Assembly (NCBI GenBank): GCA_000091205.1
Contig: AP006502.2
Reading direction: 5' to 3' (one strand)
From: Cyanidioschyzon merolae
Lineage: Eukaryota
Length of the DNA: 64,000 bases
Under the pieces are notes generated by a model that saw nothing but the letters and a program-made list of their open reading frames with translations, ran no database searches and was not told the origin of the DNA. Both the position numbers and the translations under genes were made by a program. Shown here in pieces: positions 6,450 through 64,000 of the stretch (position 1 is its first letter; each line of letters begins with the position of its first letter).

Positions 6450-7050
6450 TGCGGAACGCGTGCCAGCCCATGATGAAACCAATACCGGAAGGAAAATCCG
6501 TGATGGTGAACAAGTCGGAAAGGTCGGTGCTTCTACGCTTCCCTCGCACACAGCGGTAGCATACGCTCTGCTGGAAGCGATCGCTGCAGTGGTTGCAGTC
6601 CGACTCCAACACCCTCTTCCATGCAATCAGAAGAGACAGGGGCATCTGCGAGTATATCCAGTGATCGGCGTCATACTGTCATCGAAAGCACTTTCGTCGA
6701 CAGTCACGAATAGAATGGGGTATGTCTTTTCTACGGAATGGACCATTCGGCATGACGCGTTCCTTGAATTTGCGGTTTGAGCTTGAGAAGACATCGTCCA
6801 GGAACAAGGGCGAATATTTCTCCTCATTGATGCATCCGCGCGCCTTGCTGCGACCTCGATTTGCCTTGAAACGAAAAGATCGACAACTTGAAGAATGCGT
6901 GATTTGGACACGCTACACCTAACCAGAAGGAGAATATTGGAGGCTTCTTCGTATGCATCCGCGAATGATAAGGGTTATTTAGTGTGCACGTGTTCGAGAG
7001 CTTCGCGTATTATCTTGATTCCGGTGCGAAAACAAATTCCAGCGGCAAAA
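6450..7050 (+). repeat. Dispersed repeat family R, copy 1 (boundaries approximate)
   Basis: Shares blocks with the copies at 11.3, 48.3 and 58.6 kb. One block is ...tcatactgtcatcgaaagcactttcgtcgacagtcacgaatagaatgg..., similar to 59566-59612. Another is gccttgaaa(c/t)(g/a)aa(a/g)agatcga ... cgtatgcatccgc. No strand or frame is conserved as an ORF between copies. Confidence 0.55.
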
Positions 7051-8524
7051 CGTCGAAGGGCCCGCTTCGAGTAGGCGACTGAGAATCCTCGAACGACGTG
7101 TGGAAACCCAATGCCTTATTGCTGCACATGGAATGCCCACGTCGCACATCGGAAAAAAAGTTCAGAAAAAAGCACAAGGCAGGAATGGCACAAGCAGCTT
7201 AGTGTTCCATTTTTTATCCCATACGTGTGCAGACAGATCCACAACTGGTGTTTCGGTGGCTGCTTCGGTACTTTGAACGAACGAAGCGGTGAAACCGACC
7301 TGCTGCAGACCACCTAGATGCATACGGAGAACGCTCCGGAGGCACGAAAGCATCGCATATGTATATGTATATAGTGCATCAACGAGTCAGGCGTGGTCAT
7401 TGCGTAAACTTGGTTGCATGGATTCCTCGTTGCTGGATGCGCTTCCCGGACGGGTCCGCACAGCGCGTTGCATCTGTACTTGCATAGGGTCGCGTTGCGT
7501 CCTGGCGACCGTGTGGTGCTTGTAGTTGCAGCTTGCTACCGGTTCCGCAATAGGTCTGCAACACCTGGAAAGCCCATATCGCTAACCTGAGGGTCTGGAA
7601 GGTGTAACCGTTGTCCACCAAGCTCCGTTGCTCCGTCTGCCAGCATCAGCTTCACGGAACCGGTGAGAATTCGAAGAAAATGAGACTTGATTTCCGACGC
7701 TTTCATGCTCTCCCTTATAAGGAACTCTTGTAGCGAGGAGCGCTTTCGAACCACTGGTCCGAGAATCGCACGAGTTGCGAAAGTGTTCATCATTAAGAGA
7801 AACAAACTGCAGCGTCGTCGCGAAAACGAGCTGCATATCGGAAGAAATGCCATGATAGGATTGACCAAGGATTGTTGCTAGCTGGACGCCGGGAAGACGG
7901 TACGGGCGAGTGGAAATTCTTCTCCTCGAACAAAACGATGCGCACCTTCGAGTTCGTTCATTTTGAGACTTGTGCCCTGCATCCCAGGACTGTTCCTGCG
8001 AACACATTAGGTCAGTGATGGATGTTTAATAGCGCCAGTGGATATTCTGACCGCGCATGGAAACAAGTATGTATAGAATGCTGCGAGTAATCACCTGTGC
8101 GTCAAGGAAAATAATGATGGTGCCGTGATTTCTCGTGTTCGAATCATCATCATCAGCAGCAGCAGTAGCAGCAGCACTACTTATAGATGCACGCTCATGA
8201 ACGATTACCTGAGCATCATGGAAAACAGCATTGGTCCACGTTGCCCTGCATTGGAAGCATCATCAGTCGATGCGCTGCGAATAGACGCACGATCACCAGC
8301 AGCGTAATCAAAGCAGGCTGCTCCATCACCGAAAAGAAAGTGCGCTCGCTTCAGCGGTCGCGAGGCGAATCGCAGCTGCGTGACGATATCCGCGTTGCCC
8401 GACTTGCTAACCATTATGGATTTGAACATTTGCACCTCACACTGCAGAAACGCTCGGCGCTCCATTTGAACCTTTTTTGGCAACGAGATAATCGCCATGG
8501 AGTGCGAGCTTCTGTCGACCTAGT

Positions 8525-11279: not shown

Positions 11280-12050
11280 GTCACGGGAGCGAAAACGTTT
11301 CGCGACCATGTAGGGTGCATGAATAGCTATCCGCAGACGCTTTTCAGCGTTTTTTGACCGGCCCGCAGCTATCCGCTTCAGCTTCTACTTGTGTTCTTTG
11401 AACCTGAGAGGCTACCCCACGAAGTGAGATTGCGTCAGCTCCACGGGTCTCGTCTTCAGCATCGCGTATCCTATGATATTGATGGCGGTGTTGAAGCCTC
11501 TGTTCACGAACTCAATGCGTTTATTGCCTCTCGTCACAGCTTGTATTGTGTCGAATATTCAATTCGAAAGACGAATGAGCCTCTCTTTGTGGTCATCAAC
11601 GAAACTGCATTCCGTAGCAGCATGATACCGCTGACGGGATTTGCCACAGTACGCTCCCGTCTTTTCTGTTTCCAGCGATAAGAGCCTGGAACTTGAGTCA
11701 TCGCAGCGATCGCTTTTGCCGGGGCATGCGTCACCGCTTGGAACAAGGCGAGCGTAGACGGATCGATATTTTTCGATCTCTTCTCCAATCTGGATTTCCT
11801 TTCCGCACTTGTTTCATCACGCACAACATCGCGTTCCATAACACCCCTATCGAATGGAACAGCGTGGGCTTGCCCAGCGCGAACAGGCAAGCGTTCACGC
11901 GCCACAGAGCAACCGTCTGAGGAGCTATGGTGAACACGTACCAAGACCTGACCTCACTCAAGTAGCAATGATGCGAATGGTGCACCGATGCTGTATAGCA
12001 AGAAGATGAAAATGACGAGCAGAGCGTAGATCGCAACCTCTCGCCCGTGG
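11280..12050 (-). repeat. Dispersed repeat family R, copy 2, inverted relative to the other copies (boundaries approximate)
   Basis: The reverse complement of 11820-11865 (gggtgttatggaacgcgatgttgtgcgtgatgaaacaagtgcgg) matches 59345-59390 (cttgtggaacgcaatgttgtccttgatgaaacaagtaccg). Neighbouring blocks are also collinear with the 59 kb copy. Confidence 0.55.
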
Positions 12051-22226: not shown

Positions 22227-23269
22227 GAAGGCTCAGTTTCCCGCGCATTTTTCGACGCCGCCGCGCACGGTGCTGTCTCGCCGCGGCTGTGCGCGCGGAT
22301 CCGCTGATTCCGGTGGTACGTTCAGCGGTGTGCCTCCGCATGCCCCGCGTGTGTCTCTGGAACACGGCGTTGACACTGACAGGTGATTGCCCAATGCGCA
22401 CTTGATCTCAGTCATCGGGGGAGCGTTTATCGCTCTACTCGCCTTTGAATTCCATTCAGCATACTAATATTTGGACATACTGGATATTTCCCATGGAAAA
22501 CTGCGCACCGTGTCGAGCGTGAGCACCTGCTATAGCGCCTATAGCGTCGGTGCGGTCGCAGCAGGGAGACACAAGGGATTTGCTGTATTACCGGGGAGAG
22601 TCGGCTTGTGGTGTAATTCACCCGATGCGGGTTCTGATCTTGGTATCGATTTGTGTCCGGAACGTCCGACCACATGCCCAACGCCATGCGCAATGTTGCA
22701 TGCGCGCGCGATTCTCCTTTCGCCGAGTGCCCCGCATCGGCTGTCGAGGTCGAAGAGGCAGCGCGTTCATTTCGGGACTATTATGGCGCCTACGCTGCCG
22801 GGGTATCGAGGCGGATGAGCGTCAGGTCCACCATGGACATGGACAAGCAAGGTGCGTCTTGATGCCACAGGAATGATGCGACTGAGCTCGAGCGCGTTGG
22901 TGATGGACGACCCATGCCGAGCGGATTCTTCCGCTGCTCGAGATGCCTGCGCCCGGCAGCCTGTGCGGTCGGAATCGATGGCGAAGCGAACAAGGCAGGC
23001 TGATTCCGCCGCAACTCGACGCGATTGGATGACTCGAATCGAGCACTGCGGGAGCCTGCATTCGAGCCCCGATGACAACGCTCCCCAGCGTATCACAAGA
23101 AGACCTCCCATTTGCTTATAAGATGGTGTACCCATTCGCCTTGATGCACACAGGATGCTGCCGTCCACTTTGCCGAACATGCTGCAAGCATCGATCGGCC
23201 GCAAAGCTCGTTGAGGCGCGCCGATGCTTGCGCTTCGTATCCGCTGGGTGCGGGGGCACGCGGGCCCCA

Positions 23270-26691: not shown

Positions 26692-29074
26692 ACAGTTGGC
26701 GTCAAGGAACGGGCAGTGAATCAGTGACGAGGAGCGCTTGTGACATCGTGTCTCGTGCCGGGCCGCTCGTGAGTGTCAGCGCGTAGCTCGAGCCACGTTC
26801 GTTCGATGAGGTAGGTATCAGCGTAGAAAATGGAGCGCGGATGGTATGTTCGCACACTTTAAGTCCTGCACATATAAGTGTTGAGCTGGTGCCCCTGTCG
26901 ATAACGGTGCACGTTCCGCGGATGAAAGACGGGGACGGATGACACATGTGGCCTTTATCGGACTTGCCCATGATGTGAGAGTGCTTTGCAGCGGCAATCG
27001 ATCGATGGGTATTCGGCCGCAAGTACGATGCAGCTGGGCACGGAATACCGATACTGGACACGTCGATAAGTAAGAGCATCCTGTCGGTTCCGTGCCTTGC
27101 ATCAGTGCGGCTCTGTGCACAGAAGTGGAGACGATCTCGTGCGGGAATCATCATGCTTGCGCCTATGAGGAAAGATTGCAACTTGTGCATAACATCGGAC
27201 AGTGCTCTTCCATTTTCAGTATGATGTACGGTTTACAAGACATTGGGATTCGAGTTGCAGAAAGCGAATTCGCCTGGACGTCCGCGGATAATACAGAGAA
27301 GCGAGGCCCGCCCTGTGCATGGCATACACTCCATGTTTACGTAAAGCCAGAAGCCCGTCGTCGTCGAATACGAATTGTGTATTGAGGGATCTTGTTGGCA
27401 TGGACGCCGCATGAGCTCCTACAACGCCGCCTTTGCGTATTGGACGGGCACAACCATTTCCCCACAGCATCGACATGTTGTCCACGTCGCCCTGACTGTA
27501 GCCTGCCGGCGCTCCCAGATACCATGTTGCACCAGTAGTCGTTACGTAAACTCCGGCACGACTCTACCCAATAAAATCTTTATCAGAGCATATCGAAAAT
27601 CCTGCTATAATGTTGTACCGGTTATCCTTGCGTGAACGCTCGCACCAAATCGTTCCATCCGAGAAACTCGTTCCAACCTTCCGCCCACCTTGCCTGCACG
27701 GCAGCAAATCGCTAAACCGACTGCTGATGTTTCAGAGACACACGAACGGCCCTCGGTCGATGCGGTAACGCGGCGGGACTGCGCTAGCACGTATCGCTTC
27801 GGTGAGCAGACACGCAAACGATGAAATGTCACACGGACTGCATGCCAAGGGATTTCGGATCGCAACCGAGGCAGGCAGTTTGGCAGCACTTGGTACCGAT
27901 AGAATGCATCAGGGCGCATGCGTTGACGAGAACGGTCCACCGAAACACGATTCCCGCCTTTCGTGGTCAACAGAACCCTACGTCGTTGCTTCGCCAGGCG
28001 ACATGAGCCTGCTATGCGTCGCTACCCGAACACTGAAGCGCCAGCAGACACAGCAAATGAGCTACGGGTGCTGGACACGAAACCCTGTCTCGGTAGTAGG
28101 AGGCCGCACCAGCGCCAACGATTGGCACGCCGATGAACACGGCGACTCCTGGTGCCGGATGCGCTGTCGCACGCGCGAAAGCATGCACATCCATCAAGAC
28201 GCTACCACAGCTATTGTGGACTGCGAGAACCCGCTGACCCTGTGACTGACTTCGGGCAGCCGTCACCACGGTGCTATTCGCTATCCGGAGCTATTGCGCC
28301 CACTTCCAGATAATCCTGAAAACGCAACACGCGCCACCTGGTGCTGGAATCATTGCACTCAATCACCGTTTTTACAGGCGTTCGAGGAAACGCACGCAAA
28401 GCTCTGCACCACAAAGATCACAGCATGCTTTTTCCGGGTACAGGCGGGTGTCGGATCGTTGACGGCATCGAGGAATCACCATTTACGTGTGAGCAACAAT
28501 TTTTTTACGATCCAGGATCGCTACGTCTAATTAGGGATCCCCCGGACGCACCCCAAGTTTCGAAAACCAGAGCAGCAAACCCCCGTACCGCTCCAGTCCT
28601 GTAGCGTTGCAGGAGCCGCAGAGAAGCTGAAGGACACGCCACTCGAAAAGCACCCTCATGGTCATCCACCGTGTGCCGTATAGGTAATGTAACTTGGGAG
28701 TAGGGGTTTGATGGATACCTCACCGCACACTGAAAAAAAGTAAGAAAAGAAAATGCGCATAATCAGAGAACGCTGGCCAAAGTAAACGTTTTGTCCATGG
28801 CAAAAAATCCACCGTGTGTCGTTCCGGATCATTGCGGCGCGCCGCACTGACGACCGACGTGTTTGAAGGGAATCGTCAGACACTACTGCTGCTACTACTA
28901 CTGCTGCTGCTGCTGGTGGTGACGTTTTCTAGTCCTGAACAGAGGGCGAGTGAAGCGCAGCCTCTTGTCTTCGGACCGGGGAGCTCTTTACGAGGTAACC
29001 TGAAGGGTCTGGTGTAGCTCATCTCAGAGACAAGTAGTGCGTAGCGTGCAACGCTCAGATTCGGAACGGCAGCG

Positions 29075-36486: not shown

Positions 36487-38121
36487 AAGTCTACAAGCCT
36501 GGTGTACTGTAGCGATTGCTTGACACTACCAACGCCTCTAAACCGACTGAAAATGTTTCGTAACTACAGAATCGTTTGAAGGCCGCACGTATCTAAACTA
36601 GAAGGGAAAATGAATGTTGACATGCGTGTCGCATTTTCCGTTTCGCGCCGCGACACGCATCTGGGGCACCGACGGATGGACACGTGTCCCCGGCCAGGCG
36701 CTGGATCGCTGGCACCAGGCCTCCGCGGTATATGGCATCGTGGGCTGCCACGCTCTCGTTCGCCGTTTGTTTAGGGAAATAATTTCCGGTATCCATGTAG
36801 GTTGGCTGCGTCTGCATAGATGGATTGGTGCACTGCTTCGTTCCGGGTTCTTGCTTCAATGTGTATTCCCTGTCCTGTGTCTTCTGGGCCCTGATTATTT
36901 TTACATCGAAAGTGTTCAGCGATAGATCACAGCTTACGTTCAGCGTACCGTACGATTCCATGGATATTTCGCTGGACACCGAGGCGCTGGTCGCTTCGGA
37001 CGAACCACACATTACCTGTTATTCATTGAAGTGCTCAAGTCGAGGTAGGGAAAGTGCCTGCGTGCATCGTTGCTTTTGGAATCGCGCGATAGCAAGCTTC
37101 TCACCATCGATTGTCTCGCTAGCGGACGCTCGGTTATACAACCGCACACGAATCTCGTGCTGCTCCACCTCTGTTTTAGGCTCGTATCGTTTACCTACTT
37201 CAGCGCGCGCCTGTGCTCGTGATGTGTGGATGTCGTCCTGGACGCATCGATGGGAATTGTGCAGCTTGGACTCCTGCACTCGTTGAGCGCTTTCATAGCG
37301 GCAGCAGGATTGCGGCCCTTGGAAGCCAAACCACGACTAGCGCCGTAGGCGACAACCAGACCACGTGACATATCGGTTGTTTCGCTTTCCAACTTTACGA
37401 GCAAGTTCAGGAATGCACGCTTCGTACTTCAGTGCAGTTGAAATCGTTACCGACCTCAGCATTGCTTCGTGTACTCCTGTGAAAGATCGTCTGCTTGAGG
37501 CATTTGGAAGGTGATCTGCGCTCTGTATGAAGCGCACAAAAACATTCTCCTGTGCGCGATACGGCGTTGAGCGCATCCAGATGCGTCCGAACGCCGTCGT
37601 TCCTCTTGTTGGCCTCGCTCTTGGCCTCCAGTATACCCAAGTTTGGATCATATCAGTTTAGGAAAAAGTTGATTAGCTTCATCAGCTTTCCTTTTCAGCT
37701 CATTGGTTCCGTCGATTTGATTTAATGCTACGGTGACGGTGACGTCGCATCGAATCTGGGAAGCAGCGAACGTACGCTATCGACAAGATAGCGATGCAAC
37801 GAGGAGCGAGCTCCCCCGGCTTATCACGAGTCCAGCGCCTCTTATTCTCTGCCAGTACCTGCGCATGCCCCGAAGCGTGACGGGAAAGTGTTCGCAGCAA
37901 ACGCTGGTCAATACAGGTCACTCGTCTAAGTGCCACAAGTGTCAGCATTGAGCGATCATCGTCATTGGCACGCGTACGGCGTCAACCAAGTGCACTACGC
38001 AAACGGACCGGTTACGCAGTGACCGCCAGCAGCTGAGCAGTCCCTGAGCCACGCCCATACGTTCTTCGACCTGTCTGCGACGTTTGGCAACCAGCGGGTG
38101 ACGCATCCCGTTGTAGCCTGG

Positions 38122-48299: not shown

Positions 48300-49270
48300 C
48301 CTCGGTGCGCACTTGACAATGGTGACACTCGAATATAAGCTGAGGACTTCCCGTGTGCCTACCAGAACGCATTCTTCACTGAGTTTCATCCCGCGGCAGA
48401 TGACGATCTACTTCATCGCTGGATCCATGCGTTTCATGGGAAACGAGTTTTCCGTCGATGCGCTCCTCGGTTTCAGTGCCCGATGCGGTAGCGTATGATT
48501 ACGCGCTTTTTTTCGGAGGCAATTCGTTCCATGAGTACGCTGTCAGAGGCGCGCGCTGAGGTCCACTGTTCCATTCGATAAAGCAGTCGCGTAACGCGAC
48601 GTTGTCCATACCGAAACAAGCACCGATAGTTGAATCCAGTCTGGAGAAGACCAAAAAATCTGGAGCAGTCTACGCGCCCTTGCTCGAAAGCAGTGGCACA
48701 CGCTGCACTCGAAGCGATCGCTCCAATGACTCAGGTCCGAGTCCAAGATCCTTGTTCATGAAAACCGAAGCAACCGGGAGCCTTTGGATGCATATCTCGT
48801 GAAAGGGACGATGATGTTCTCGAATGCCGTTCCTTGGATGGCCATCAAGAGATATAGAAAATCGCCTTTTGAACGAGATGGATGATTCAACATCATATGC
48901 TCTTTGAATGTTCGGCATGATACCGTGAGCTGGTTGTCAAAGTACGCCGCAGATTGTTTTCCGTCGCTATTCCAGCGACCTCCGTTGCAGCGCCCGCAAC
49001 TTGTCTTGAAGCCGAAAGATAGAAAGACTTTCATGTTCGGTTTGAGCTTGCAGCTTATGAGGAAAGAGGAAGCACGGATGCTTGTATTTATGAATCGAAT
49101 GATGATATCGATTATTTTACGAACGCTTGTTCCGCGGCACTGCGGATCACATCTCGATTCTGGTAACGTAACGAGCTCCAGCAGCAACGTGTTGAACGAG
49201 TATTCCCGAAAAGAAAACGATCGAGCATCGTGAAACTCCACATGCATCCGCACGCCCGTTTCGCTACGCG
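48300..49270 (+). repeat. Dispersed repeat family R, copy 3 (boundaries approximate)
   Basis: 48717-48745 (atcgctccaatgactcaggtccgagtcc) resembles 59478-59508. 49087-49130 (gaatcgaatgatgatatcgattattttacgaacgcttgttccgcggc) resembles 59851-59897. 49246-49262 (cacatgcatccgcacgcc) resembles 59989-60005. Confidence 0.55.
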
Positions 49271-52608: not shown

Positions 52609-53955
52609 TTAGTATTCTTCCTCTTCCTCGTTGGTGTCTGCTGCGACTTCGATGTAGTCTTTCTCGAGCGCGGCGAGGTCCTCACGCGCTTCGCTAAACT
52701 CGCCCTCCTCCATTCCTTCACCAACGTACCAGTGCACAAAGGCCCGCTTGGCATACATGAGGTCGAACTTGTGGTCGATGCGCGCGAATACCTCAGCGAT
52801 GGCTGTTGAGTTGCTCACCATGCAAACCGCACGCTGCACCTTGGCGAGGTCACCATTCGGAACGACCGTGGGCGGCTGCGAATTGATACCAACTTTGAAA
52901 CCGGAGGGGCACCAGTCCACAAACTGGATGCTACGCTTGCTCTTGATCGCTTTGACAGCGGAATTAACATCCTTAGGCTGGACATCGCCGCGATACATCA
53001 GACAACAAGCCATGTACTTGCCGTGCCGCGGGTCGCACTTGGCCATCATGTTGGCGGGATCGAAGGCAGCTGAGGTGATTTCGGCGACGCTGCCCTGCTC
53101 GTGGTGAGCTTTTTCGGCGGATATAACTGGCGCATAACTCGACAGCATGAAGTGAATCCGAGGATACGGTACTAAGTTGGTTTGATACTCGGTCAAGTCC
53201 ACGTTGAGCGCGCCGTCGAAACGAAGCGATGCCGTCAGCGAAGAGATAACTTGGGCGATGAGGCGATTCAGATTCCGATACGTTGGCCTCTCGATGTCCA
53301 GGGATCGCCGACAGATATCATAGATAGCCTCGTTATCGAGAAGCACGGCCACATCCGTATGTTCCAGCAGCGCGTGGGTGGACAGCACAGAGTTGTAGGG
53401 CTCCACTACAGCAGTGCTGACTTGTGGCGACGGATACACTGTAAATCCGAGCTTGCTCTTCTTTCCATAGTCCACCGATAAACGCTCCAAAAGGAGCGAG
53501 CCTAGACCGGATCCAGTGCCTCCGCCAACTGAGTTGAAGATCAGAAATCCTTGCAGCGCAGAGCAGTTATCCGCCAGTTTTCGTATGCGATCGAGAGCCG
53601 TGTCTACTATCTCCTTCCCTACAGTGTAGTGGCCCCGAGCGTAGTTATTGGCAGCATCCTCACGCCCGCTCATCAGCTGTTCTGGGTGGTACAGCTGGCG
53701 GTAAGGGCCGGTGCGCACCTCGTCTACAACAGAGGGCTCCAAATCCAGGAACAAGCAACGAGGAACATGTTTTCCAGATGAGGTCTCAGAGAAGAAGGTC
53801 CCGAAGGAAGCGTTATTGGCAGCTGCGATCGCCGAGTCGCGGCTAGCCATCGTGCCGTCGGGAAGGATACCATGCTCTAAACAGAAGAGCTCCCAGCAGG
53901 CGTTCGCCACCTGCACACCAGCTTGTCCTATATGGAGTGATATAACCTCGCGCAT
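52609..53955 (-). CDS. TUBA: Alpha-tubulin (complete, unspliced, 448 aa)
   Basis: [30 protein letters not shown]...GGGTGSG...[107 protein letters not shown]...EEEEEY. Alpha-tubulin is collinear throughout, including the acidic C-terminal tail ending in Y. Confidence 0.95.
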
Positions 53956-54254
53956 GATAGATTGTATTCGTTGTGAAGCTTTTCAGACACTAAACACTCA
54001 CCAGAGGCGACTATTCACCGAACCTCCGTCGAATGGTTAGGCAGCACGAAAACTCCAAACCGGAACGCTGAAAAATGGCGCGGGATATTCGAATAGCAGA
54101 CACCTGACGCGTTTCGCCGTTCAAAAATCGAACGCCGCGGCCCGCGGTGTGCAGGAGTGGCGATCGGCGCGCCCTAGACATAACGCCTCCAACTGATGTG
54201 CAGACGCCTCCCAGCCTTTTGGACCGGCCAGCCACTACTGCTTCCAATCTTGTC

Positions 54255-56530
54255 TCATATAGTTCCACCTTGGGAGATTGTCCAACAAAGTTCCCTCTCA
54301 TATACTCTGGAGGGACTTCTTTCCATTACCGCAGATTTCCGTATCTTGATAGCGGTGTTAAAGTCTCGGTTCACAAACTCCATCCGTTTCTTGCCATCAC
54401 TGGTTGTACATACTAATGCAAGTAGCCCTCGAACTTTCGCCCTCCTTTCCATTGGCTCTTCCTTCAGCGGTCCGTACTTTGTGAAATCCTCAGGGCTCCG
54501 CTTACACTTTTCCATCTCTACGCTCTGAAGTGCGCACCTCAGTTCATGGTGTGTATACGACGCACGGAACTCGTCTATTGGTATCATAACGAAACGCCGT
54601 GCACACTCCTTGTACGTTCTTGTCGACGGAGCTGGCGTAGTTCCTTTTTCGGCGCCCAGCGCCCTGTCCCATAGGCTACAACGAGCGTCTGATTTTCATC
54701 CATCTTCAGGGCGCTCAACTGATGGAAAAAGTTCGCGAATGCACGCTGCTTCCCACAGCATAGATTCATTCGCAAACGAGCCCACCGAGGCTTGGTATAC
54801 TCCTCCTACAGTGCACCCCAATGCGCAATGCGAACTTCCATGAATTTCCGAAAAGCTTCAAAGTCCGCTCCTCGGCTAGTCACCTCGCTCAAAGCTTCCA
54901 GGATCTCTTTCATTCCTGAATTCCAAGTCTCGATTTTCTTCCTTGCATTCATTATACCCGATTCTGGGTAATATCTCGCTCTCCACAACCTCAACAGACG
55001 CATGTCTTTCTGACGTAAATTACCGTCGGTCCCATCTTCCGCACGCTTCGGTGCTGCGATGGTTATGATATTCGTGTTTCCGGGGTCCGCGCCAACGACA
55101 AAGTCGTTCTCATGCACTTTCTGCGCCGCAGGACCCGCCTTCTTGGTTTATTCATGCTTCTCCGCGTCAACGACAAGGTCGTTCTCATGCACTTTCTGCT
55201 CCGCTGGACCCGCCTTCTTGGTTTATTCATGCCCCGCCGCGCCAACGACAAGGTCGTCATCCTGCACCCCCTGCGTCGCAGAATCCTCCTCTTTGTTTTC
55301 TTCATGCTCCGCCGCATCAACGACAAGGCCGTTATCCTCCACCTCCTGCATCGCAGGACCCGCCTCCTTCTCATCTTCATGGTTCGCCGAGGGCGGAACT
55401 GGACGATCTTTCTTCAACCGCCGATAGTGTACACACTTGGCTACTCCATCGGTCTCGATCATCCCAGTGAACAACTTTTGCTTGCTCATTCTCAGACGTT
55501 TGAAATTGAAGATATTCTTCCAGTGCGTCTCCCGGTTTTCGCCGGTGAAGTTCTCCCTGCTAACAGTGAACTTCGGGCTGATCTCCTTCATGATGCCGTA
55601 GAGGACTGTGGAGTCGATAGTCACGATATGTGACTTGATGTTGCACAACGAAATGACGTTGAAGCGCTTCTCCATTAGGAAGGCCTTCCGTCTCTCCCAC
55701 TCTTCATTGTTTTCCTCACTCAGCTTCATCTCCGCATTGCATTCGAGCTCTCGATCCTAAAACACGAAATAGCGCAGGACGAGGCGATAGTATCTTCCCT
55801 TATCTTTTTTCAACTCTGATATCTTGTCTGTTGGATTCGCCAACCCCAAGATCGCGCGGTGCTCTTGCATAGCCGCACGGATTACAGAAGATTCATTCGT
55901 GCTCCTGCGTGACTTCTTCTTGTCGACGAATTCGATCTCATGTTAATGCTTGCGATCCTTCGAGATGCCATTGATAATCGCCCATATTCCTTTGCGAGAG
56001 ATGCCCGGGCAGAGTGCAAATACGGTGCGTATCATGAAACGTTCGAGGTTCATTGTGAAATGGTTCTTCAGGTTCGTGAGGTACTTCATCACTCCGTATA
56101 TGTAAATATCCCAGTAACCCTTGCATCGAGTACTGTTGAAGCTGTAAAAGGGATGATTTTCGTGGAGGCCATGGACTAGCACATTTTCCCGCCGCGCTTC
56201 CTCTGTACCAAGCATCAGCTGACGAATAAAGGTCTTATCGAAAAACTCGTCCGGAATCTCGACCGTTTCCATGTGCATCACATCGCGATACATCTCCCTC
56301 GCCAAATGCATCAGTCCTGACGACGCCTTGACAATACTCTTGGATTACGAGTCGACACGTTTTTCGATAGCGTCTCGCAACTTTTCCTTACACGGATCCT
56401 TGATATGTCCAAGAAGAAAGGTTTTTACCACCTTTTCGTCGTACAGTTGTCGTCCTTGCCGCTTACGACGTAGGGCCTCCCCCTTTGGGTTCTCCTTCTC
56501 TTCCTTTTCTTCTGGACTCAGCACTGTTTT
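54255..56530 (-). mobile_element. Copy A of a TnpB/Fanzor-like (RuvC-fold, OrfB_IS605-type) element; ORF fragmented by frameshifts and carrying an internal 75-bp minisatellite
   Basis: The minus-strand ORF pieces 55943-56311, 55223-55729, 54806-55117, 54584-54775 and 54255-54587 are collinear with the plus-strand ORFs of copy B (62750 onward). They contain ...[21 protein letters not shown] (RuvC-I-like D in a GxDxGxxN context) ... LVVAYGTGRW ... ALVCTTSDGKKRMEFVNRDFNTAIKI. The last segment matches a degenerate zinc finger plus the RuvC-III motif RDxNAAxNI of TnpB/Fanzor. Reading 56312-56530 on the minus strand gives a further coding-like N-terminal stretch that is absent from copy B. Confidence 0.5.
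55085..55390. repeat. 75-bp minisatellite (about 4 tandem units) embedded in copy A of the TnpB/Fanzor-like ORF
   Basis: Unit ...caacgacaa(a/g)gtcgttctcatgcactttctgc(g/t)ccgc(a/t)ggacccgccttcttggtttattcatgc... has a period of 75 bp (the motif caacgacaa recurs at 55094, 55169, 55244 and 55319). It encodes an acidic 25-aa repeat (..[26 protein letters not shown]..) that is absent from copy B at the corresponding position. Confidence 0.8.
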
Positions 56531-58599
56531 TTGTTTTTTTTTCTAGCAGCCGGCGACCCTGGGCCTCCAGGATCGTGGACTTGCTTTTTTCATAACTTTG
56601 TTTTTTTGTTTTTTTTTGAAAAACAACGCTCTTTGAACCCTTCTGTTATATATTTCGAAAAAACACTTGACTAGACTTGTTTGAAGTTCTAAACAAAAAT
56701 CAACTGAAAGACTATACTTGGCTACGACCTGAACGGAAATCTGACGTTTACAGCTGAACAACACGCTGCTGGTCAGGATCGCGTTTAACTTCAACGGCGG
56801 CATCCGCGTCGCGTCTCCTGCCTGGCTGAATCTCCCAGGTGCGCAAATCGACAGCACTATTTAGAACAAAGAAAAGAGATTCACGACCAAAAAGCAAGGA
56901 TATAACGGATTCTTTCGTCCTCTACGATAAACGATAAAACAGGGAAAAGTTTTCCGTACTGTCGCAAGTCCTCCTTCCAGGCGGAAAGTTCCGCGAGCCT
57001 GACGAGTCTCCCAGACTCGTGCTTCGTGCTCCCCCCAATGGCAGGTCTTGAAGCGAGACCTCGGCAACTCGTCTGGAATGCAGTTTATTCCAAGATCGCG
57101 AGTGGCTGGAGTGCGTCTGGTCGTCGCCCTGATCGTCGTTTTCTTCCAGCAAATTGCATGGCTCCGTTGCAGGCAGCAAGTCTGTCTGCGCAGTTGCCAA
57201 ACTCCCAGGAGAATGATGAATCCCAGGCCCCGTGTCGGCTGAACCACACCTCGAGCCGATGCCCCCAGTGATATGACAAAGTTATTCTGTTCCCGTGCTG
57301 AATCCGGACCAGCAGTATAGGCTCTGTTGCTGCAGGCGCTCGGGGCAGGCGCTCGGCACACCATAGAACCTACGAAACGACCATCGCATCCGAGAGAAAG
57401 CATGGATAATGGAGCTTAAAGGTAGGGTGGAACATGATAGACACTCTTTCGATCACCAATATCCATCCCGCAATCTAGGAGCCGTGGTCCATGAAAACAT
57501 TCTGGAAAACACAGCGATCTGTGGATTTGAGATTTGCGCATACACTGCCGCGGATACCTTGACGCGTCGCCACGGCGATCGATCGGAACATAGAAAGCAC
57601 AGGTGCCGAAAAGTATCACAAATTGGAAAGGGAACCATTTTCAATCGTTCAAGATTGACCAAGAGAACGACTTGTTGTCGAGTGTTGTCCTTCTTTTTAG
57701 TGGCTACACAGCTGTCGCGGAACCGATAAATCAAGAGGATGCAGCCAAAACCCTCAACGAACGCAGATGCGGTAGCCCAACTGTCTGAGAGCTCCGAATC
57801 ATCGATAGCCGGGCATGATGGACGGCGTGAGGCGTACGATCGAGTAGGATGGCGAGGTCAGGACCCGTCTCGATGCTTTGGGTTCCTTTCCGATGAATGA
57901 GGACATTTTCTGCGCCTTATTTCGAGCGAATATTAGCGTCCAACTAGCGAAATCGGACAATCTCCGGCTGGAGTGCATGACATCGTGCACGGGACGCCAA
58001 CGGTATCCGCAGTGCAGAGACAACAAGCGTGGATTCAAGTGTCTGCTCAATATGTAGGAAATAGAAATGACGAACATGTCGTGTCGTTTGGTCGAGGCCC
58101 GTGGCTCTGGAGGTGCTGCAACGCGCTGAACCTGCACTTTTGCTCCGTCGACCAGCGCGCACAAAGTGTGCAGGAACTGAATCTTTCCATCTCCCATCGA
58201 TGCAATCCAGACGATTTGAGCGCATCACGAGCACAAGGGCACGTTGAGCGTGCTAGACGACAACAGCAACATCGTGAAGCAATGACGAATGCACCAGATG
58301 ATGGAAAGTTAGTTGACCATCCGTTTATGGCGAGGCAGTCGAGGGCAAGAGACTTGCGATGATATGACTCTCCGCGCAACAGTACGCGCCATGACTCGAT
58401 GCGTCGTGACTGGAAGGCTCCCATCACGAGCGAGGGATGTCTCGTGCTTCCCGGGCGGACGTCCGTCGGCTCGGTATCCAGCGAGCTTTCGCAGGAATCG
58501 TTTCGTACCAAGCGTGTGCGTTGTGCTGCGATGCGGAAGACTTGCGCTCACGAAATCAGTGCCTGGGAGAGGGTCATAGATTCCCGTCTGGCTCAAGGC

Positions 58600-60010
58600 C
58601 CTGGCATGATACGGGGTCACCAATGCGGCAAGGCTGGTGCGTTCTATGCATACATCGGGAACGGTTTCCCCGGTAATCGGTGACCAAGAATGGTGCCATA
58701 TCATTCAGTAGTACTGAATATTGGTATATATAGGCAGAACGTTTCACCGTAAACCTCTGATGGATTCCTAAAGCAACGTCAGACTGAATCGGATCGGGTC
58801 CGTTCAGATAACCCGAGTGTTTACGCTCAACATGAGGGTCTCTTCTCCTTGTCATCAACATGAGCGTTTTGCGCGCTTCCACTGCGAATGCTTCCTTTTT
58901 CTCTCGCTTATATGCGGTTTTCAGTGTGCCGGTCTCTACGATCCCTCCAGCTCCGATGTCAGCTGTTGGGGAGAGTTCATGAGAGCGTGTGAGTCCCGCT
59001 CTCGTCGCTTCCTGCTGTTGTCGACGCATTGCATGCCGAGGCTCAAGTACGATCTACATATCGATTCCCATTTTCACCGTCTTTGTAGATAGCCTTGATG
59101 CGCTCTTCGCAGCGCTGTTCATTCACTGAGCTCAGGTGCTCCCATCTGTCCACCGAGTTTGCTTCTCAGAGCATTGCCAACCTCTATAGTGTTCGAAAGC
59201 TTCGTTCATCTCGTTCGATGCCGTCCTCCGTTTCCGCGCTCGGTGCCGTACCGTACGATCATGAGCAACTTCTGTATGAAAACTACGGCGACTGCGCTGT
59301 CCTCTGCACGTGGGAGCGCGCGCTGTTCCATGAAAGCCCGTACTTGTGGAACGCAATGTTGTCCTTGATGAAACAAGTACCGAGAAGCAAAATCCAGGAT
59401 ACAGAACATGATAACGAATTTCGATGTTCCGGCGCCCCGTTCGAGCTAAGCGATGCTGCACGCTCCACTGGAAACAATCGCTCCGATGAATCTAGTCCGA
59501 GTCCGAGACGCTCTTTTATGCAAAGAGCAGAAATGCGAGCTTCTCGCAACGTATCATAGGAGAAGTATCATGCCGTTGTCGAATGGCGTCTTATCGATGG
59601 GAACAAAGATGGAAAAATCTGATTTTTTGAACGGAACAGATGATTCGACTTGACAAGTTCCGTGAAGTTTCGGCTTATACTTGTGACCGAATCGTTCACG
59701 GACGACCTCGAGTATCTTTCCTCGTCAACCTAGCGGTGCAAAGGGCTGCACCCATGATTTGCCTTGAAATAAAGAGATCGAATCCCTGAAGGATTTGTGA
59801 TATGCGCGTGTCTCACATAAAGAAAAGAGATGGGCGGAGGCTTTGCCTCATGAATTCGATGATGATATCGGTAATTTCACGAACCTTCGTTCGGCGGCGT
59901 CGCCAAACATCCTGAATCCGGTGACGTAACAAAAGCCAACGGCAAAGCGTCGTAGCGGGCACTTCACCACTGAGAACGCTGAGCCTACGTATGCATCCGC
60001 AAGCCCTTCG
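58600..60010 (+). repeat. Dispersed repeat family R, copy 4 (longest copy; left boundary uncertain)
   Basis: See copies 1-3. This copy contains all shared blocks in a single orientation and has an extra roughly 140 bp between the gccttgaaa and cgtatgcatccgc blocks compared with copy 1. No ORF is conserved across copies. Confidence 0.55.
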
Positions 60011-62749
60011 TGCAGCACTCGAAATTACAATTCTATACATGTACATACGGTTCGGAAAAAAATCTCAGGGCATGAACAGTGCGACCAGTTCCATGTTTCA
60101 GTTTACTCTGACACGCGTCCTAGTGCAGGTAGCGGGGTGCGAGCTTCAGCGGCATCGTCCTCGCTTGACCAAGAAGCCTTGTAGTTACAGCGGGCGCGCT
60201 CCGATGCCTGAACGTCATCGCGGGCCCATCGGACAAGTCTCGCACTGAACGCCAATAACGCAACCCTTGTATTCATCTTCTGCGTGTTGTGCAGGGGCCC
60301 GCCCTGGCAGCGGTTTCTGCATAACTCGGCACCGCTCAGAGGACCTGTGGCACATCCACGGGACAAGGACATGATACGCGGGCGGCGGGTACCGGTCCTG
60401 GCCCTGGTTCCGCTGACGACGGCACCTCAGCCATAACTTGCGTACTGCGACGACGAAAGCGACGTGCTTGGTGGCACACGCTGCGCGCCATGGTGTCGCT
60501 CTCGGTTCCAAACAGCTGCCGAGGTATACCATCACGAAGCCATGTTGCAGGACGTTCACAGAATGGGGCAGGTACAGCCTGTGCTTCCCGCTCAGTCCAA
60601 GTCGGGGAACGAGTCAGCACACCAATAGGCCCAGCGAGACGACGTGTCGCAGCCGTCACAGACGCTTGTTCTATATCCTCGACAGGCTCATGCCTGGTGT
60701 TGGTACCGCTCAGCGAACCAACAGTTGACGTACTCGAGGAGCGTGTGCGCACACCAGGTCCGGTGCGCGCATCGCCTCTGTAGTGCCATTTTGTGAGCGC
60801 ATTCTCGTGCATCCTCGAGCGATCTCGGGCCTCGACGTGTACGCCTCTTGGAAGGTGTTTGTGAGTCGATATCGAGAAGCTTTGGGGCGGAACAGTTTGC
60901 GTGAAGCTGAAGGAGCGAGCCCTCTGAAGCTTTGCGCTTTGGGGTTTGACTCTCAAGTCACCCGAGATCGTACGTTCGCGAACGCAGATGCACCAGCACC
61001 GCCTCACGGCTACGTTTTGTATTCCGTTTTCGCTGGGCCGGCACGCAACCTCCTCGCGTCGGTCTGGGACCATTTGCGACGTAGTGGCGTGCGGTATGCG
61101 TGGTATCAGGCAGAGAGCTCCTGTAGAGCGAGCACCGTCAGGTCAACGGTCACCAAAGCACACGTTGTCAGTTCCGGGAAACGCGGCCACATGCGCGGAG
61201 CCAGGGACTCGTACGGAAAATGATGTGCTGCTGACGTTGCGAGGAACCCGAACTAGTATTTTTCTTTCACCCTTTGTCCTAATAGTCTTCCTTTTCTGGC
61301 AAATAGTACGCTTTTTTACGAGGGTATTGCTTTTTCTATTGATCTTCTCGGGTGTGAGCGCCTTCTTATGGGTGCGGCGCAGCAGAATGTGGGTGCTGGA
61401 AGTTCGTGACTGTATCGGGAGAATGGCCACGATGCGTTTCCAGAGGCGTCAAATGAGCGTCGTTCCCGTCAGTATCGTAGTGAAAGCCCGGTGCAGGACG
61501 CAGCAGCACGCGCCACAGCCAGCTACAGCAGCCCAGACGCATGACAGGCGGCGTGCGCAAGGGACACCAGCGCCCGAAGTGCCAGAGTGGAGGGATGATA
61601 TTGATTTTTCTTTGACGCCACAGCCGTCTTGCTGGCTACCGTCGACACTGAGCATCGACTGCTCTTCTCTTTGGGCACTGCTGTGGCGCTTGGGTCCGGG
61701 CGACGATTAGCCCAGTGTACGTTAATCAGCACGAATCGATCCATTCGGTGAGCGTACCGGATCGCCAGCCATTGACATGCTTCGACTTGTGAACAAAAGG
61801 AATTTCGGGGCAGTGTGGATTGGGTGCTTCTCTCTGTGACGGGCGCCAAAGCATCTCATCGTTATGCTGTGAAGAGGGCTGTCTCCGAAGATGACCTTTT
61901 CATCGTGCGCTGTCCAGAGGGTTCTGTAGACAGAGCGAACCATGTCAAAGATGATCTCGCTCGGAAAGCCTGGAGAACATCAAAAAGAATTCATAAAATT
62001 TCGCTGGGAATATTTCAGCCCGTACAGCCGTTCCCAATGCTCTGCAGTAAAAGGTTGCCACTGTTCGAACAAGCGTGCAAGCAACGACCTGGAGCAGCGG
62101 CGAGGCTGCGAGCGTTTCAGAGACCCGGAGGCTTGCAGCGCGGGAGTGTGCCATGCGCTCGCTCTGGCGGCAACGTGAGTACCTGTCGAGGCCGTACCGC
62201 GGTGTCGCTTTCTAATTTGCACCGCGAAACAGGAAACGAATGTCATGGGCTTCACTAGTGCATCTGCAACTGACAGCGATGCCAGGCAGCGAGGCAGCTG
62301 GACGCAATCCGGGGCCTTGTTCGGGCGCTGAATGTTTTGTTCGATGACAAAACGTGTATATGGACCATGGATCCCAGGTTGCGTGATGGATGGGCATTGG
62401 CTTTCTGGAAATCACTCTTTATTTGAAGCTCCAAGTTTTAGTTCGAGTACCCGTACTTCCTCTCGGACTTGGGGGTCGTTCTGTACGTTCCATCGTGCGC
62501 CGAGTGCCTGCAGCGCTGCAGCCCGCAATAGCGCCTAAACCGCTGATGCAGATGCTGCACAGAGAGAGAACGGCTTTGCCATGCCACTGAGGGCGTCATA
62601 TCGCGGAACGCTTCACCAGATACGGAGTCGGAGTACGTAATCATTCTGGGAGCCTAAAAATGGGCAAGCAGACGTCCTCTATGCGGCGGCGCGAATCGAT
62701 ATACCAGGATTACAACCTGAGCAGGGCGATGCCCAGACACAGCGCGTCC

Positions 62750-64000
62750 GCTCCTAGTCCCAGAATACACTCTGACGGGGCGATGAAGTACCTCACGAAC
62801 CTGAAGAACCATTCGACAGTGAGCCTCGAAGGTTTTATGATACGCGCCGTGTTTGCAGCTCACCCGGGCATCTCTGGCAGAGGGATATGGGCGATTATCA
62901 ATGGCATCACGAACGATTGCCGACATGAAGGTCAGATCGAATTTGTCGACAAGAAGAAGTGACACAGGAGCACGAATGAAGCTTTTGTGATCCGTGCGGC
63001 TACACAAGAGCACCGTGCGGTACTGGGGCTGGCGAATCCGGCAGCAAAGATATCAGAGTTGAAGAAAGATAAGGAAAGATACTATCGCCTCGCCCTGCGG
63101 TATTTCGTGTTTCTGGACCAAGAACTCGAACGCAAGGCGGAGATGAAGGTGAGAGGGAAAAAATGAAGAGTGGGAGAGACGGAAGGCTGTCCTAATTGGG
63201 AAGCGCTTCAACGTGGTTCCAATGTGCAACATCAAGTCAGATTTCGTGACTATCGACTCGAGAATCCTTTACGGCATCTTCAAGGAGATCAGTCCGGAGT
63301 TCAATGTACGGAAGACAGAGTTCACCGGCGAAACCCGGGAGGCGTACTGGAGGAATATATTCGATTTCAAACGTCTCAATACGAGCAAGCAGAAGATATT
63401 CACGGGGATGATCGAAACCGGTGTAGTAGGCACGTGTGTCCACTATCGGCGGGTGAAGGCGGATCGCCCTATCGTGCCTTCGGCTTTCCCCGTGACGAAG
63501 CGTGAAGATAAGAAGGAGGTGGGCCCTGGAACGTATAGTCCCCTGGATAACGACTTCGTGGTAAGCATGGACCCAGGGAACACGAATATCATAACCATCG
63601 CAGCACCCAAGCGTGGAAAAAATAGTAACAACGGCAACTTATGCCAGAGAGACATTCGTCTTTTAAAGCTCTCGAGAGCTAGAGACTACCGAGAATCGGG
63701 AATAATGAATGCGAGGAAACAAAGTGAGACCTAGAATTCAGGAGTGAAGGATCACCTGGAAGCTATGAGCGAGGTGACGAGCCGCGGAGCGGACTTTAAA
63801 GCTTTTCGGGAATTCATGAAAATTCGCGTTAGTCATTGGGGGACGCTGTGGAAAGAATATTCAAAGCCCTGGTGGGCTCGTCTGCGTATGAGTCTGTACT
63901 GTGGGAAGCATCGTGCATTCGCGAACTTTTTCAATCAGTTGAGCGCATTGAAGGAGGACGAGAGTCAGAAGCTCGTGGTAGCATACGGAGCAGGGCGCTG
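62750..64000 (+). mobile_element. Copy B of the TnpB/Fanzor-like element (5'-truncated relative to copy A, runs off the window end, in-frame TAG present)
   Basis: ORFs 62660-62962 (...MKYLTNLKNHSTVSLEGFMIRAVFAAHPGISGRGIWAIINGI...) and 63213-63734 (...CNIKSDFVTIDSRILYGIFKEISPEF...[24 protein letters not shown]...), continuing to 64000 (...SHWGTLWKEYSKPWWARLRMSLYCGKHRAFANFFNQLSALKEDESQKLVVAYGAG), are about 70-80% identical in protein to the copy A fragments. The TAG at 63732-63734 aligns with a TGG (Trp) in copy A. Confidence 0.5.

What the first reader, a model, noticed from the sequence alone, without database searches (positions are those of the whole stretch)
54255..64000. Two inverted copies of a eukaryotic TnpB/Fanzor-like RuvC-nuclease element
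Copy A (54.25-56.5 kb, minus strand) and copy B (62.75 kb to past the window end, plus strand) encode homologous proteins. Both carry a RuvC-I-like block ([11 protein letters not shown]). Copy B reads LVVAYGAG where a RuvC-II glutamate would be expected. Copy A additionally shows a degenerate zinc finger followed by VNRDFNTAIKI, which matches the RuvC-III signature (RDxNAAxNI) of IS605 TnpB and its eukaryotic Fanzor relatives. Eukaryotic TnpB homologues are RNA-guided endonucleases, so these would be a defence/selfish nuclease system inside an otherwise compact nuclear genome. Both copies look decayed: A by frameshifts, B by a TAG. Neither has an obvious catalytic Glu at the RuvC-II position.
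Basis: partly seen in the sequence, partly recalled or inferred. Interest (0 to 1): 0.75.

Follow-up and report, generated by a model that had tools for sequence, protein, structure and literature searches.

The report
Two decayed Fanzor1 transposon copies

Summary
The window is Cyanidioschyzon merolae 10D nuclear DNA. It carries two head-to-head copies of one repeat, 80-85% identical, each encoding a broken protein with the quoted motifs.

A profile of intact relatives matches only solved Fanzor1 proteins in the PDB (Parasitella E 4e-17, Spizellomyces 2e-9, Guillardia 2e-4). An AlphaFold model of the closest intact relative hits the same Fanzor1 structures (E 3e-15, TM 0.70). No DDE transposase or other RNase-H-fold protein scores above them.

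The "missing" RuvC-II glutamate is the rearranged Fanzor active site already described. The substitute Glu aligns with SpuFz1 E541 and is present in copy A (IDEFRAS).

Both copies are pseudogenes:
- Copy A (54101-57506, minus) has 6 in-frame stops and 2 frameshifts.
- Copy B (62344 to past 64000, plus) has an internal deletion, 2 stops and 1 frameshift.

The family matches CMe-1A of Bao & Jurka 2013: about 150 copies, about 80% identical, about 3 kb, no TIRs, and a 5' roughly 635-bp part shared with TE-N2_CMe.

Small additions from this work:
- refined element boundaries;
- loss of the C4 zinc finger across this clade;
- a co-varying 3'-terminal hairpin followed by a G/T-rich tail;
- a codon-position signature of past purifying selection.

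Verdict: already known, low interest.

The parts
54101..57506 (-). Copy A, a full-length but decayed CMe-1A-type element of about 3.4 kb. The 5' end is at 57506. The 3' end lies between 54115 and about 54101.
   Evidence: The BLAST homology limit against 80 related loci piles up at 54115 in 32 loci. The 5' limit is about 57504 in the long class. nhmmer places the module at 57506-56837 and the core at 56840-54113. There are no TIRs: score 13 against a shuffle mean of 12.3.
56837..57506 (-). Copy A 5' module, about 660 bp and non-coding. It is probably the TE-N2_CMe-like part of CMe-1A.
   Evidence: Only some copies carry this module. Others start at about 56844 and have different repeated 5' sequences. 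The module also occurs apart from a Fanzor core in L047, L058 and L067/L068, and alone in the window at 22390-22650. This matches the description in PMC3627910.
54166..56524 (-). Copy A Fanzor1 pseudogene, collinear with aa 1-752 of the intact relative P0001.
   Evidence: tblastn of P0001 gives 73-76% identity over aa 1-742 in two frames. HMM pieces cover profile positions 4-591. Stops are at 56345, 55943, 55757, 55223, 55148 and 54806, with frameshifts at about 54635 and about 54300.
55087..55386 (-). 75-bp tandem repeat, about 3.8-4 units (25 aa each), just upstream of RuvC-I. Two of the in-frame stops lie inside it.
   Evidence: TRF gives period 75, 3.8 copies and 82% matches; the repeat finder family D1 agrees. 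The intact relative has the same repeat, and it is modelled as disordered (pLDDT < 50 at aa 374-471). Copy B has one unit.
55055..55087 (-). Copy A RuvC-I motif [11 protein letters not shown]. Its Asp corresponds to SpuFz1 D383.
   Evidence: Coordinates. The Asp is invariant in the 15-protein alignment (D484 of P0001). It aligns to VVVIDPNKRD of 8gkh. D383 is catalytic according to PMC10432273 and PMC11423790.
54662..54685 (-). Copy A LVVAYGTG, the canonical RuvC-II strand with Gly where TnpB has the catalytic Glu.
   Evidence: Coordinates. The family consensus is VxAYGxA. Replacement of the RuvC-II Glu by Gly or Pro is the Fanzor rule (PMC10530073).
54558..54584 (-). Copy A IPIDEFRAS, carrying the relocated catalytic Glu (corresponding to SpuFz1 E541).
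   Evidence: The Glu is invariant in the family (E656 of P0001). It aligns to LLDEYKTS of 8gkh, where the chain offset of 394 makes this E541. E541 is catalytic according to PMC10432273 and PMC11423790.
54342..54374 (-). Copy A RuvC-III motif VNRDFNTAIKI. Its Asp corresponds to SpuFz1 D606.
   Evidence: Coordinates. D725 of P0001 is invariant. It aligns to NRD of the Fanzor1 structures.
54101..54149 (-). Copy A 3' terminus. The inner hairpin is at 54115-54136 (CGTTCGA / TTT / TTGAACG), followed by a short tail.
   Evidence: The hairpin is present in all 29 non-redundant copies examined. The inner arms co-vary: own-pair duplex energy -8.19 against -6.59 kcal/mol for cross pairs, permutation p 1e-4. 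The 14 nt after the hairpin are 76% G+T across copies.
62344..62770 (+). Copy B 5' module, the first roughly 430 bp only.
   Evidence: nhmmer E 1e-88. It aligns with copy A and with L044 and L070 from the 5' terminus onward. BLAST matches about 20 loci.
62775..64000 (+). Copy B Fanzor1 pseudogene fragment, from P0001 aa 140 to aa 626. It is cut by the window end just after LVVAYGAG.
   Evidence: tblastn hits at 62765-63145 and 63153-63998. Stops are TGA at 62960 and TAG at 63732, with a frameshift near 63160. The deletion junction at 62771/62775 is shared with paralogue L070 at 81% identity.

Best explanation
These are two independent, old, inactivated insertions of the CMe-1A Fanzor1 transposon family in the nuclear genome of Cyanidioschyzon merolae. 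Their 5' ends face each other across a 4.8-kb repeat-rich spacer.

An intact element would encode a roughly 750-aa Fanzor1 protein with WED, REC and RuvC domains and a degenerate TNB domain. Its active site would be Asp (DPG), a relocated Glu (DEFRT) and Asp (NRDxNAAxNI).

By homology with SpuFz1, GtFz1 and PpFz1, that protein would bind an omega-RNA transcribed from the 3' end of the element and cut DNA matching the guide next to a TAM. This presumably helps the element persist or home. That step is inferred, not shown.

In this window neither copy can make the protein. Copy A has 6 stops and 2 frameshifts. Copy B lacks the gene start and has 2 stops and 1 frameshift. Both are molecular fossils.
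For: Organism: the alpha-tubulin ORF at 52609-53955 is identical to BAM83431.1 / XP_005539467.1 of C. merolae 10D.

Homology:
- 58 relatives were found, including the intact 752-aa P0001 at 66% identity and 94% coverage.
- The profile search against the PDB hits only Fanzor1.
- The AF2 model (pLDDT 70.6) searched against the PDB returns seven Fanzor1 chains first, best TMt 0.70.
- The catalytic D/E/D residues are invariant in the family and present in copy A.

Family features:
- 366 confirmed matches in hot-spring metagenomes that carry C. merolae-like genomes.
- Copies are about 80% identical.
- Copy A is 3.4 kb with no TIRs.
- The separable 5' module is present.
- All of this matches the CMe-1A description in PMC3627910.

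Independent insertions: A and B are no closer to each other (80-85%) than to unrelated copies. B also carries a deletion that it shares with paralogue L070 but not with A.

Past function: third codon positions vary more than first and second (identity 0.784 against 0.85 and 0.865). In the RuvC half the values are 0.752 against 0.874 and 0.894.
Against: - Pfam gives no significant hit on the repaired proteins, and only sub-threshold TNB hits on relatives.
- The C4 zinc finger, which is part of the 2013 motif definition, is absent.
- No omega-RNA was demonstrated. The last 206 nt of copy A fold no better than shuffles (z 0.21). RNAalifold finds only a weak consensus. The 3' 200 nt are not more conserved than the coding part.
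- I could not compare directly with the Repbase CMe-1A consensus. Identity with that named family rests on matching its published description.
Confidence: 0.95

Rival explanations
1. The proteins belong to another RNase-H-fold family, such as a DDE transposase, and the TnpB-like motifs are coincidental.
For: No CxxC zinc ribbon is present.
Against: The PDB profile search returns only Fanzor1 at E <= 2e-4. Foldseek returns seven Fanzor1 chains, then Fanzor2 and Cas12, and no DDE enzyme. The alignment covers WED, RuvC-I, the relocated Glu and RuvC-III in register with the catalytic residues of SpuFz1.
Confidence: 0.01
2. The locus is a working RNA-guided nuclease or defence system. The apparent stops would lie in introns or be read through.
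For: The catalytic D/E/D residues are still readable in copy A. Bao & Jurka note that some CMe-1A copies remain intact (PMC3627910).
Against: Copy A has six stops and two frameshifts spread along a sequence that is collinear, without gaps, with the intact intron-less relative P0001. Copy B lacks the first roughly 139 codons. Only 1 of 23 non-redundant copies examined has a full ORF. No defence-gene context was seen.
Confidence: 0.02
3. The two copies are arms of a recent inverted segmental duplication, or of a composite transposon that mobilises the 4.8 kb between them.
For: The copies are inverted and head to head, with a spacer of 57507-62343.
Against: The arms are only 80-85% identical, the same as between unrelated family members. 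B has an internal deletion that A lacks, and shares it with paralogue L070 elsewhere. The spacer matches almost nothing in the 80 related loci except short repeats.
Confidence: 0.02

Closest known systems
CMe-1A Fanzor1 element of Cyanidioschyzon merolae (Bao & Jurka 2013, Mob DNA 4:12, PMC3627910)
   Same: Same species. The length is about 3 kb, 3.4 kb here. Copies are about 80% identical. There are no TIRs and the TSD cannot be determined. The 5' part of about 635-660 bp also exists as a separate repeat. Most copies are decayed and a few are intact. It encodes a Fanzor1 protein.
   Different: No difference could be shown. The Repbase consensus was not available, so the identification is by description. 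This work adds boundaries, a deletion-derivative subfamily, alternative 5' regions and the 3' hairpin.
Spizellomyces punctatus Fanzor1 (SpuFz1; PDB 8GKH, 9CEU-9CEZ)
   Same: Same overall fold (Foldseek E 3e-15, TMt 0.70). The profile match has E 2e-9. The same catalytic Asp, relocated Glu and Asp (D383/E541/D606) align.
   Different: Sequence identity is only about 15%. SpuFz1 has a CCCC zinc finger in its NUC/TNB domain (PMC10432273), which the C. merolae clade lacks. SpuFz1 elements have 30-nt inverted repeats, and CMe-1A has none. The C. merolae protein carries a disordered 25-aa tandem-repeat insert before RuvC-I.
Parasitella parasitica Fanzor1 (PpFz1; PDB 9CF0-9CF3) and Guillardia theta Fanzor1 (9CER)
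   Same: PpFz1 is the best sequence-profile hit (E 4e-17). It covers WED/RuvC-I and the C-terminal DEFRTS...NRD block.
   Different: PpFz1 has a cyclophilin-binding FRI insertion (PMC11423790), which is not seen here. It also retains the CxxC pairs.
Bacterial IS200/IS605 TnpB (e.g. ISDra2) and Cas12f
   Same: Same RuvC fold and RDxNAAxNI motif. RNA-guided cutting is the inferred activity. A hairpin lies at the right end of the element.
   Different: In most TnpBs the canonical RuvC-II Glu sits on the strand that reads VVAYG here. They also have a zinc ribbon, are much smaller, and are mobilised by TnpA. No TnpA was found next to these copies. Foldseek places Cas12f far below Fanzor1 (E > 0.1).

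Membership tests
Fanzor1 (eukaryotic TnpB homologue) | Significant sequence similarity to established Fanzor1 proteins | tested here: met
   The profile of 15 relatives against the PDB hits PpFz1 at 4e-17, SpuFz1 at 2e-9 and GtFz1 at 2e-4, with no other significant hit.
Fanzor1 (eukaryotic TnpB homologue) | Fanzor1 three-dimensional architecture (WED-REC-RuvC) | tested here: met
   AF2 model of P0001, the nearest intact relative at 66% identity to repaired copy A: pLDDT 70.6, pTM 0.66. The Foldseek top 7 are all Fanzor1, with a best TMt of 0.70. This was tested on the relative, not on the broken window copies.
Fanzor1 (eukaryotic TnpB homologue) | RuvC-I catalytic Asp | tested here: met
   [11 protein letters not shown] is present in both copies. 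The Asp is invariant and aligned to SpuFz1 D383.
Fanzor1 (eukaryotic TnpB homologue) | Rearranged RuvC-II: an inert residue at the canonical Glu position and a conserved Glu downstream | tested here: met
   VVAYG(T/A)G is present in both copies. IDEFRAS is present in copy A, and its Glu aligns to SpuFz1 E541. The rule comes from PMC10530073. The spacing here is about 33 residues, against about 45 quoted there. In copy B this part lies beyond the window.
Fanzor1 (eukaryotic TnpB homologue) | RuvC-III RDxNAAxNI Asp | tested here: met
   Copy A has VNRDFNTAIKI. The Asp is invariant in the family. Copy B cannot be tested because it runs off the window.
Fanzor1 (eukaryotic TnpB homologue) | C4 zinc finger (OrfB_Zn_ribbon / TNB) between the [TS][TS] motif and RD, as in the 2013 motif definition | tested here: not met
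   Neither copy A nor any of the 15 aligned relatives has a pair of CxxC motifs. 99 of 114 library relatives have 3 or fewer Cys in this segment. Pfam PF07282 is only sub-threshold, best E 4.8e-4 at 20.7 bits against a cut-off of 26.3. The authors who defined the family still list the C. merolae element as Fanzor1. I treat this as a zinc-finger-less subclade, because homology and fold are met.
Fanzor1 (eukaryotic TnpB homologue) | An omega-RNA encoded at the 3' end, with the guide in the flank | tested here: inconclusive
   There is a conserved, co-varying terminal hairpin and a G/T-rich tail. However, there is no overall structural signal, no excess conservation and no Rfam hit. Small-RNA sequencing is needed.
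Fanzor1 (eukaryotic TnpB homologue) | RNA-guided DNA cleavage | not testable with these tools
   This needs biochemistry on an intact family member. Both window copies are pseudogenes.
CMe-1A element (Repbase family of C. merolae) | Host, length, copy divergence, lack of TIRs, and a 5' roughly 635 bp shared with TE-N2_CMe | tested here: met
   Host. Length of 3.4 kb. About 80% identity. No TIR. Separable 660-bp module. All were compared with the text of PMC3627910.
CMe-1A element (Repbase family of C. merolae) | Nucleotide identity to the Repbase consensus | not testable with these tools
   The Repbase consensus is not held in any available collection.

The most novel reading that the evidence does not exclude
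The C. merolae Fanzor1 lineage may be a distinct, still partly active, zinc-finger-less Fanzor1 subclade from a thermo-acidophile. It would use a minimal 3' hairpin plus a G/T-rich tail as its RNA or terminal signal, and it would spread as a modular element with interchangeable 5' regions. Rare intact copies, such as P0001 in hot-spring populations, would then be heat-tolerant RNA-guided nucleases with an unusual TNB domain. Their mode of mobility would also be unclassified: constant 3' end, variable 5' end, no TIRs.
Probability: 0.25. Interest if true: 0.4.

Novelty: already known. Interest (0 to 1): 0.15.

Why it matters
It matters little as a discovery. Fanzor1 elements in C. merolae were catalogued in 2013, Fanzor biochemistry and structures were published in 2023-2024, and the two copies here are dead.

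The side observations could interest people who look for thermostable compact genome editors or who study how Fanzor elements move. These are the loss of the zinc finger across a large clade, the selection signature on the RuvC half, the rare intact copies in hot-spring populations, and the 3' hairpin with modular 5' ends.

Tried and rejected
1. Pfam scan of the conceptually repaired proteins gave no family. Single-sequence phmmer against the PDB gave only noise. A profile of relatives was needed.

2. I first read the variable sequence after the 3' hairpin as the 3' arm of a long, roughly 20-bp co-varying stem. Per-copy folds looked convincing, and the sense strand folded better than the antisense in 29 of 29 copies. 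A direct test failed. Each copy's own outer arms pair no better than arms swapped between copies (-8.50 against -8.50 kcal/mol, p 0.50). The strand asymmetry mostly reflects a G/T-rich tail. Only the inner hairpin co-varies.

3. RNAalifold on 29 3' ends gave a weak consensus (-6.9 kcal/mol, 2 compensatory pairs). The 206-nt 3' region of copy A is not unusually stable (z 0.21). No Rfam family matched.

4. Excess sequence conservation of the 3' end, as expected for an omega-RNA scaffold, was not found.

5. Copy B as a simple 5' truncation was rejected. It keeps the 5' terminus and has an internal deletion.

6. TIRs were not found, and a TSD or TAM could not be determined from the flanks.

7. The composite or segmental-duplication reading of the inverted pair was rejected.
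Full report
**What is in the sequence**

The last 10 kb of the window contain two homologous stretches in opposite orientation. The repeat finder reports three collinear inverted arms, 54657-55111 / 63546-64000, 55386-55717 / 63153-63484 and 55710-56097 / 62775-63162. They are 80-85% complementary.

- [11 protein letters not shown] in both copies
- LVVAYGTG in copy A and LVVAYGAG in copy B
- IPIDEFRAS in copy A
- VNRDFNTAIKI in copy A

**Whose genome**

The intron-less alpha-tubulin ORF next door (52609-53955, minus) is identical to alpha-tubulin of Cyanidioschyzon merolae strain 10D (BAM83431.1 / XP_005539467.1). It sits on a 1.62-Mb record. The window is C. merolae nuclear DNA. This fits its 55% G+C and compact gene layout.

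**What the protein is**

Pfam finds nothing on the conceptually repaired proteins. A single-sequence search of the PDB gives noise.

The large protein database holds 58 relatives. They include an intact 752-aa protein, P0001, at 66% identity and 94% coverage, and a set of 600-700-aa proteins at 26-39% identity. Three of these give sub-threshold hits to PF07282 (Cas12f1-like TNB, formerly OrfB_Zn_ribbon). The best is E 4.8e-4.

A profile built from 15 intact relatives (A1) matches only Fanzor1 among all solved structures:
- Parasitella parasitica Fanzor1, E 4.1e-17
- Spizellomyces punctatus Fanzor1, E 2.2e-9
- Guillardia theta Fanzor1, E 2.3e-4

An AlphaFold2 model of P0001 (pLDDT 70.6, pTM 0.66) searched against the PDB returns seven Fanzor1 chains first (E 3e-15 to 5e-12, best TMt 0.70). 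Fanzor2 and Cas12 variants follow at E > 0.07. No DDE transposase appears.

It is not met, so the Fanzor call stands.

The family is large. The same profile finds 6319 50%-identity clusters at E <= 1e-3 and 834 at E <= 1e-30.

**The active site**

In A1 the invariant acidic residues are D484 (DPG), E579, E656 (DEFRT) and D725 (NRDxNAAxNI), in P0001 numbering.

The HMM alignment to 8GKH puts the DPG Asp on D383 and the DEFRT Glu on E541. The MBP-fusion offset is 394, checked on D383/N385 and E541. The NRD motif aligns with NRD of the structures, which is the position of the third catalytic residue, D606. D383, E541 and D606 are the residues that coordinate the two Mg2+ ions in SpuFz1 (PMC10432273, PMC11423790).

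Jiang et al. (PMC10530073) showed that Fanzors replace the canonical RuvC-II Glu by Gly or Pro. They use a conserved Glu about 45 residues downstream, which is essential for cleavage. Here the strand reads VVAYG(A/T)G and the Glu lies about 33 residues further on.

Copy A still encodes all three residues.

One real departure from the textbook motif is the C4 zinc finger. It is absent from copy A and from all 15 aligned relatives. Of 114 library relatives, 99 have 3 or fewer Cys in that segment. SpuFz1 does have a CCCC finger (PMC10432273). The corresponding part of the model has low confidence.

**State of the two copies**

Copy A is collinear with P0001 from 56524 to about 54166. It carries:
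- in-frame stops at 56345, 55943, 55757, 55223, 55148 and 54806;
- a frameshift at about 54629-54641;
- a 1-nt insertion near 54300 that causes the stop at 54255.

Copy A also contains a 75-bp (25-aa) tandem repeat at 55087-55386 just before RuvC-I. The intact relative has this repeat too, and it is modelled as disordered.

Copy B is collinear with P0001 aa 140-626. It has TGA at 62960, TAG at 63732 and a frameshift near 63160, and it is cut by the window end.

Both copies are pseudogenes.

**Element anatomy, from 80 related loci**

A back-translated pattern scan of metagenome contigs gave 366 confirmed matches. The 80 loci kept are all from hot-spring samples that also carry the C. merolae tubulin locus.

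*3' end.* The BLAST limit of homology to copy A piles up at 54115 in 32 loci.

*5' end.* There are two classes. One stops at about 56844. The other continues to about 57504 through a roughly 660-bp non-coding module at 66-75% identity. That module also occurs away from a Fanzor core in L047, L058 and L067/68, and alone in the window at 22390-22650. Copies of the short class instead carry other 5' sequences that are themselves repeated.

*Copy B.* It is not 5'-truncated. Positions 62344-62770 are the first roughly 430 bp of the same module, from its very terminus. They are fused to the core at 62775, which corresponds to position 56097 in copy A. The same junction is present in paralogue L070 at 81% identity, so this deletion derivative itself spread.

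*Ends.* No terminal inverted repeats were found. No clear TSD or TAM could be determined.

**Comparison with the literature**

Bao & Jurka (2013, PMC3627910) list one Fanzor1 family in C. merolae. They describe it as follows:
- about 150 copies of CMe-1A, each about 80% identical to the consensus;
- a consensus about 3 kb long, with TSDs undetermined and no TIRs;
- a 5' 635 bp that is 95% identical to a separate element, TE-N2_CMe (about 70 copies);
- an old family in which some copies still encode intact Fanzor1.

Everything measured here fits that description. The host matches, copy A is 3.4 kb, copies are about 80% identical, there are no TIRs, the 5' module is separable, and decay is mostly complete. 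Only 1 of 23 non-redundant copies has a full ORF.

I could not align to the Repbase consensus, so the family name rests on the published description. Full-text searches found no other paper that treats a C. merolae Fanzor.

**How it most likely works**

By homology, an intact CMe-1A expresses a Fanzor1 that binds an omega-RNA from the element's 3' end. It then cuts DNA that matches the flanking-derived guide next to a TAM. This is shown for SpuFz1, GtFz1 and PpFz1, and only inferred here.

I looked for the RNA. The signals were:
- All 29 non-redundant 3' ends carry a short hairpin, CGTTCGA-CTT-TCGAACG or the alternative ACGTTTTTC-TTTT-GAAAGACGT.
- The arms of this hairpin co-vary. Own-pair duplex energy is -8.19 against -6.59 kcal/mol for swapped arms, permutation p 1e-4. 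Relatedness of copies inflates this.
- A 14-nt tail that is 76% G+T follows the hairpin.

A longer outer stem that I first believed in failed its test (p 0.50).

There is no broader structural or conservation signal and no Rfam match. An omega-RNA is plausible but not shown. The hairpin could equally be a transposition signal.

The family was under protein-level selection while it diversified. Third codon positions are more variable than first and second, most strongly in the RuvC half (0.752 against 0.874 and 0.894). This supports the 2013 argument that the protein matters to the element.

**The inverted pair**

A and B are no more alike than random family members. B has a deletion that A lacks. 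The 4.8-kb spacer is not repeated with them elsewhere. They are independent insertions in a repeat-rich patch, not a composite element or a recent duplication.

**Verdict**

The "defence" reading is not supported. The feature is already known and non-functional at this locus, so interest is low.

Noticed in passing
window 11333-11549 (-) and 37194-37530 (-): Two further, much more decayed Fanzor1 relics. The first covers the RuvC-III end (tblastn 48% identity, nhmmer E 7e-24). The second covers aa 561-742 (33% identity, HMM E 5e-11, nhmmer E 9e-12).
   Followed up: partly
window 57737-58231 (+): A possible third relic lies between copies A and B. tblastn to P0001 aa 502-665 gives 29% identity and E 8e-9. 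Neither the protein HMM nor nhmmer recovered it.
   Followed up: no
window 22390-22650 (+): A solo fragment of the roughly 660-bp 5' module (TE-N2_CMe-like) with no Fanzor core attached (nhmmer E 4e-24).
   Followed up: no
loci L011, L023, L035, L077, L080, L084; L016, L021, L061; L024, L037, L041, L049, L058, L068 (about 100 nt upstream of the core start, equivalent to window 56844): The Fanzor core is joined to at least four different 5' sequences, each of them repeated. One is an inverted copy of the module terminus (…AAACGTTTTGTCCATGAAAAAAA). The pattern is a constant 3' part with variable 5' parts, as Bao & Jurka describe for MCi-2.
   Followed up: partly
A1/A4 alignments; P0043-P0231: The whole clade nearest to the C. 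merolae protein lacks the C4 zinc finger, which is conserved in SpuFz1 and in TnpB. 99 of 114 relatives have 3 or fewer Cys in that segment. More distant members (for example P0179, P0202) keep 5-7 Cys.
   Followed up: partly
window 55087-55386 (-); P0001 aa ~374-471: A 25-aa tandem repeat (…NDLVVDA.KHEE.K.A.PA.Q.V…) sits immediately before the RuvC-I strand and duplicates the sequence that leads into DPG. Its copy number differs between element copies: about 4 in A, 1 in B and 4 in P0001. It is predicted to be disordered.
   Followed up: partly
window 59625-59955 vs 6727-7058; 59315-59397 vs 11790-11870; 59821-59930 vs 49060-49172; L005 3401-3536 vs window 28678-28806: Other short dispersed repeats (64-85% identity) occur in the spacer between the two copies and elsewhere in the window. 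They are probably other small transposon families.
   Followed up: no
L005/L007 (P0001) versus the family consensus at the position equivalent to window ~54166-54290: The consensus ORF runs about 35 codons past the stop of P0001 (…NFVGQPLKVELYEKKLEAVVGGRSKKTGRRLHVSWRRFV*). The only 'intact' copy found may therefore itself be slightly truncated at its C terminus.
   Followed up: no
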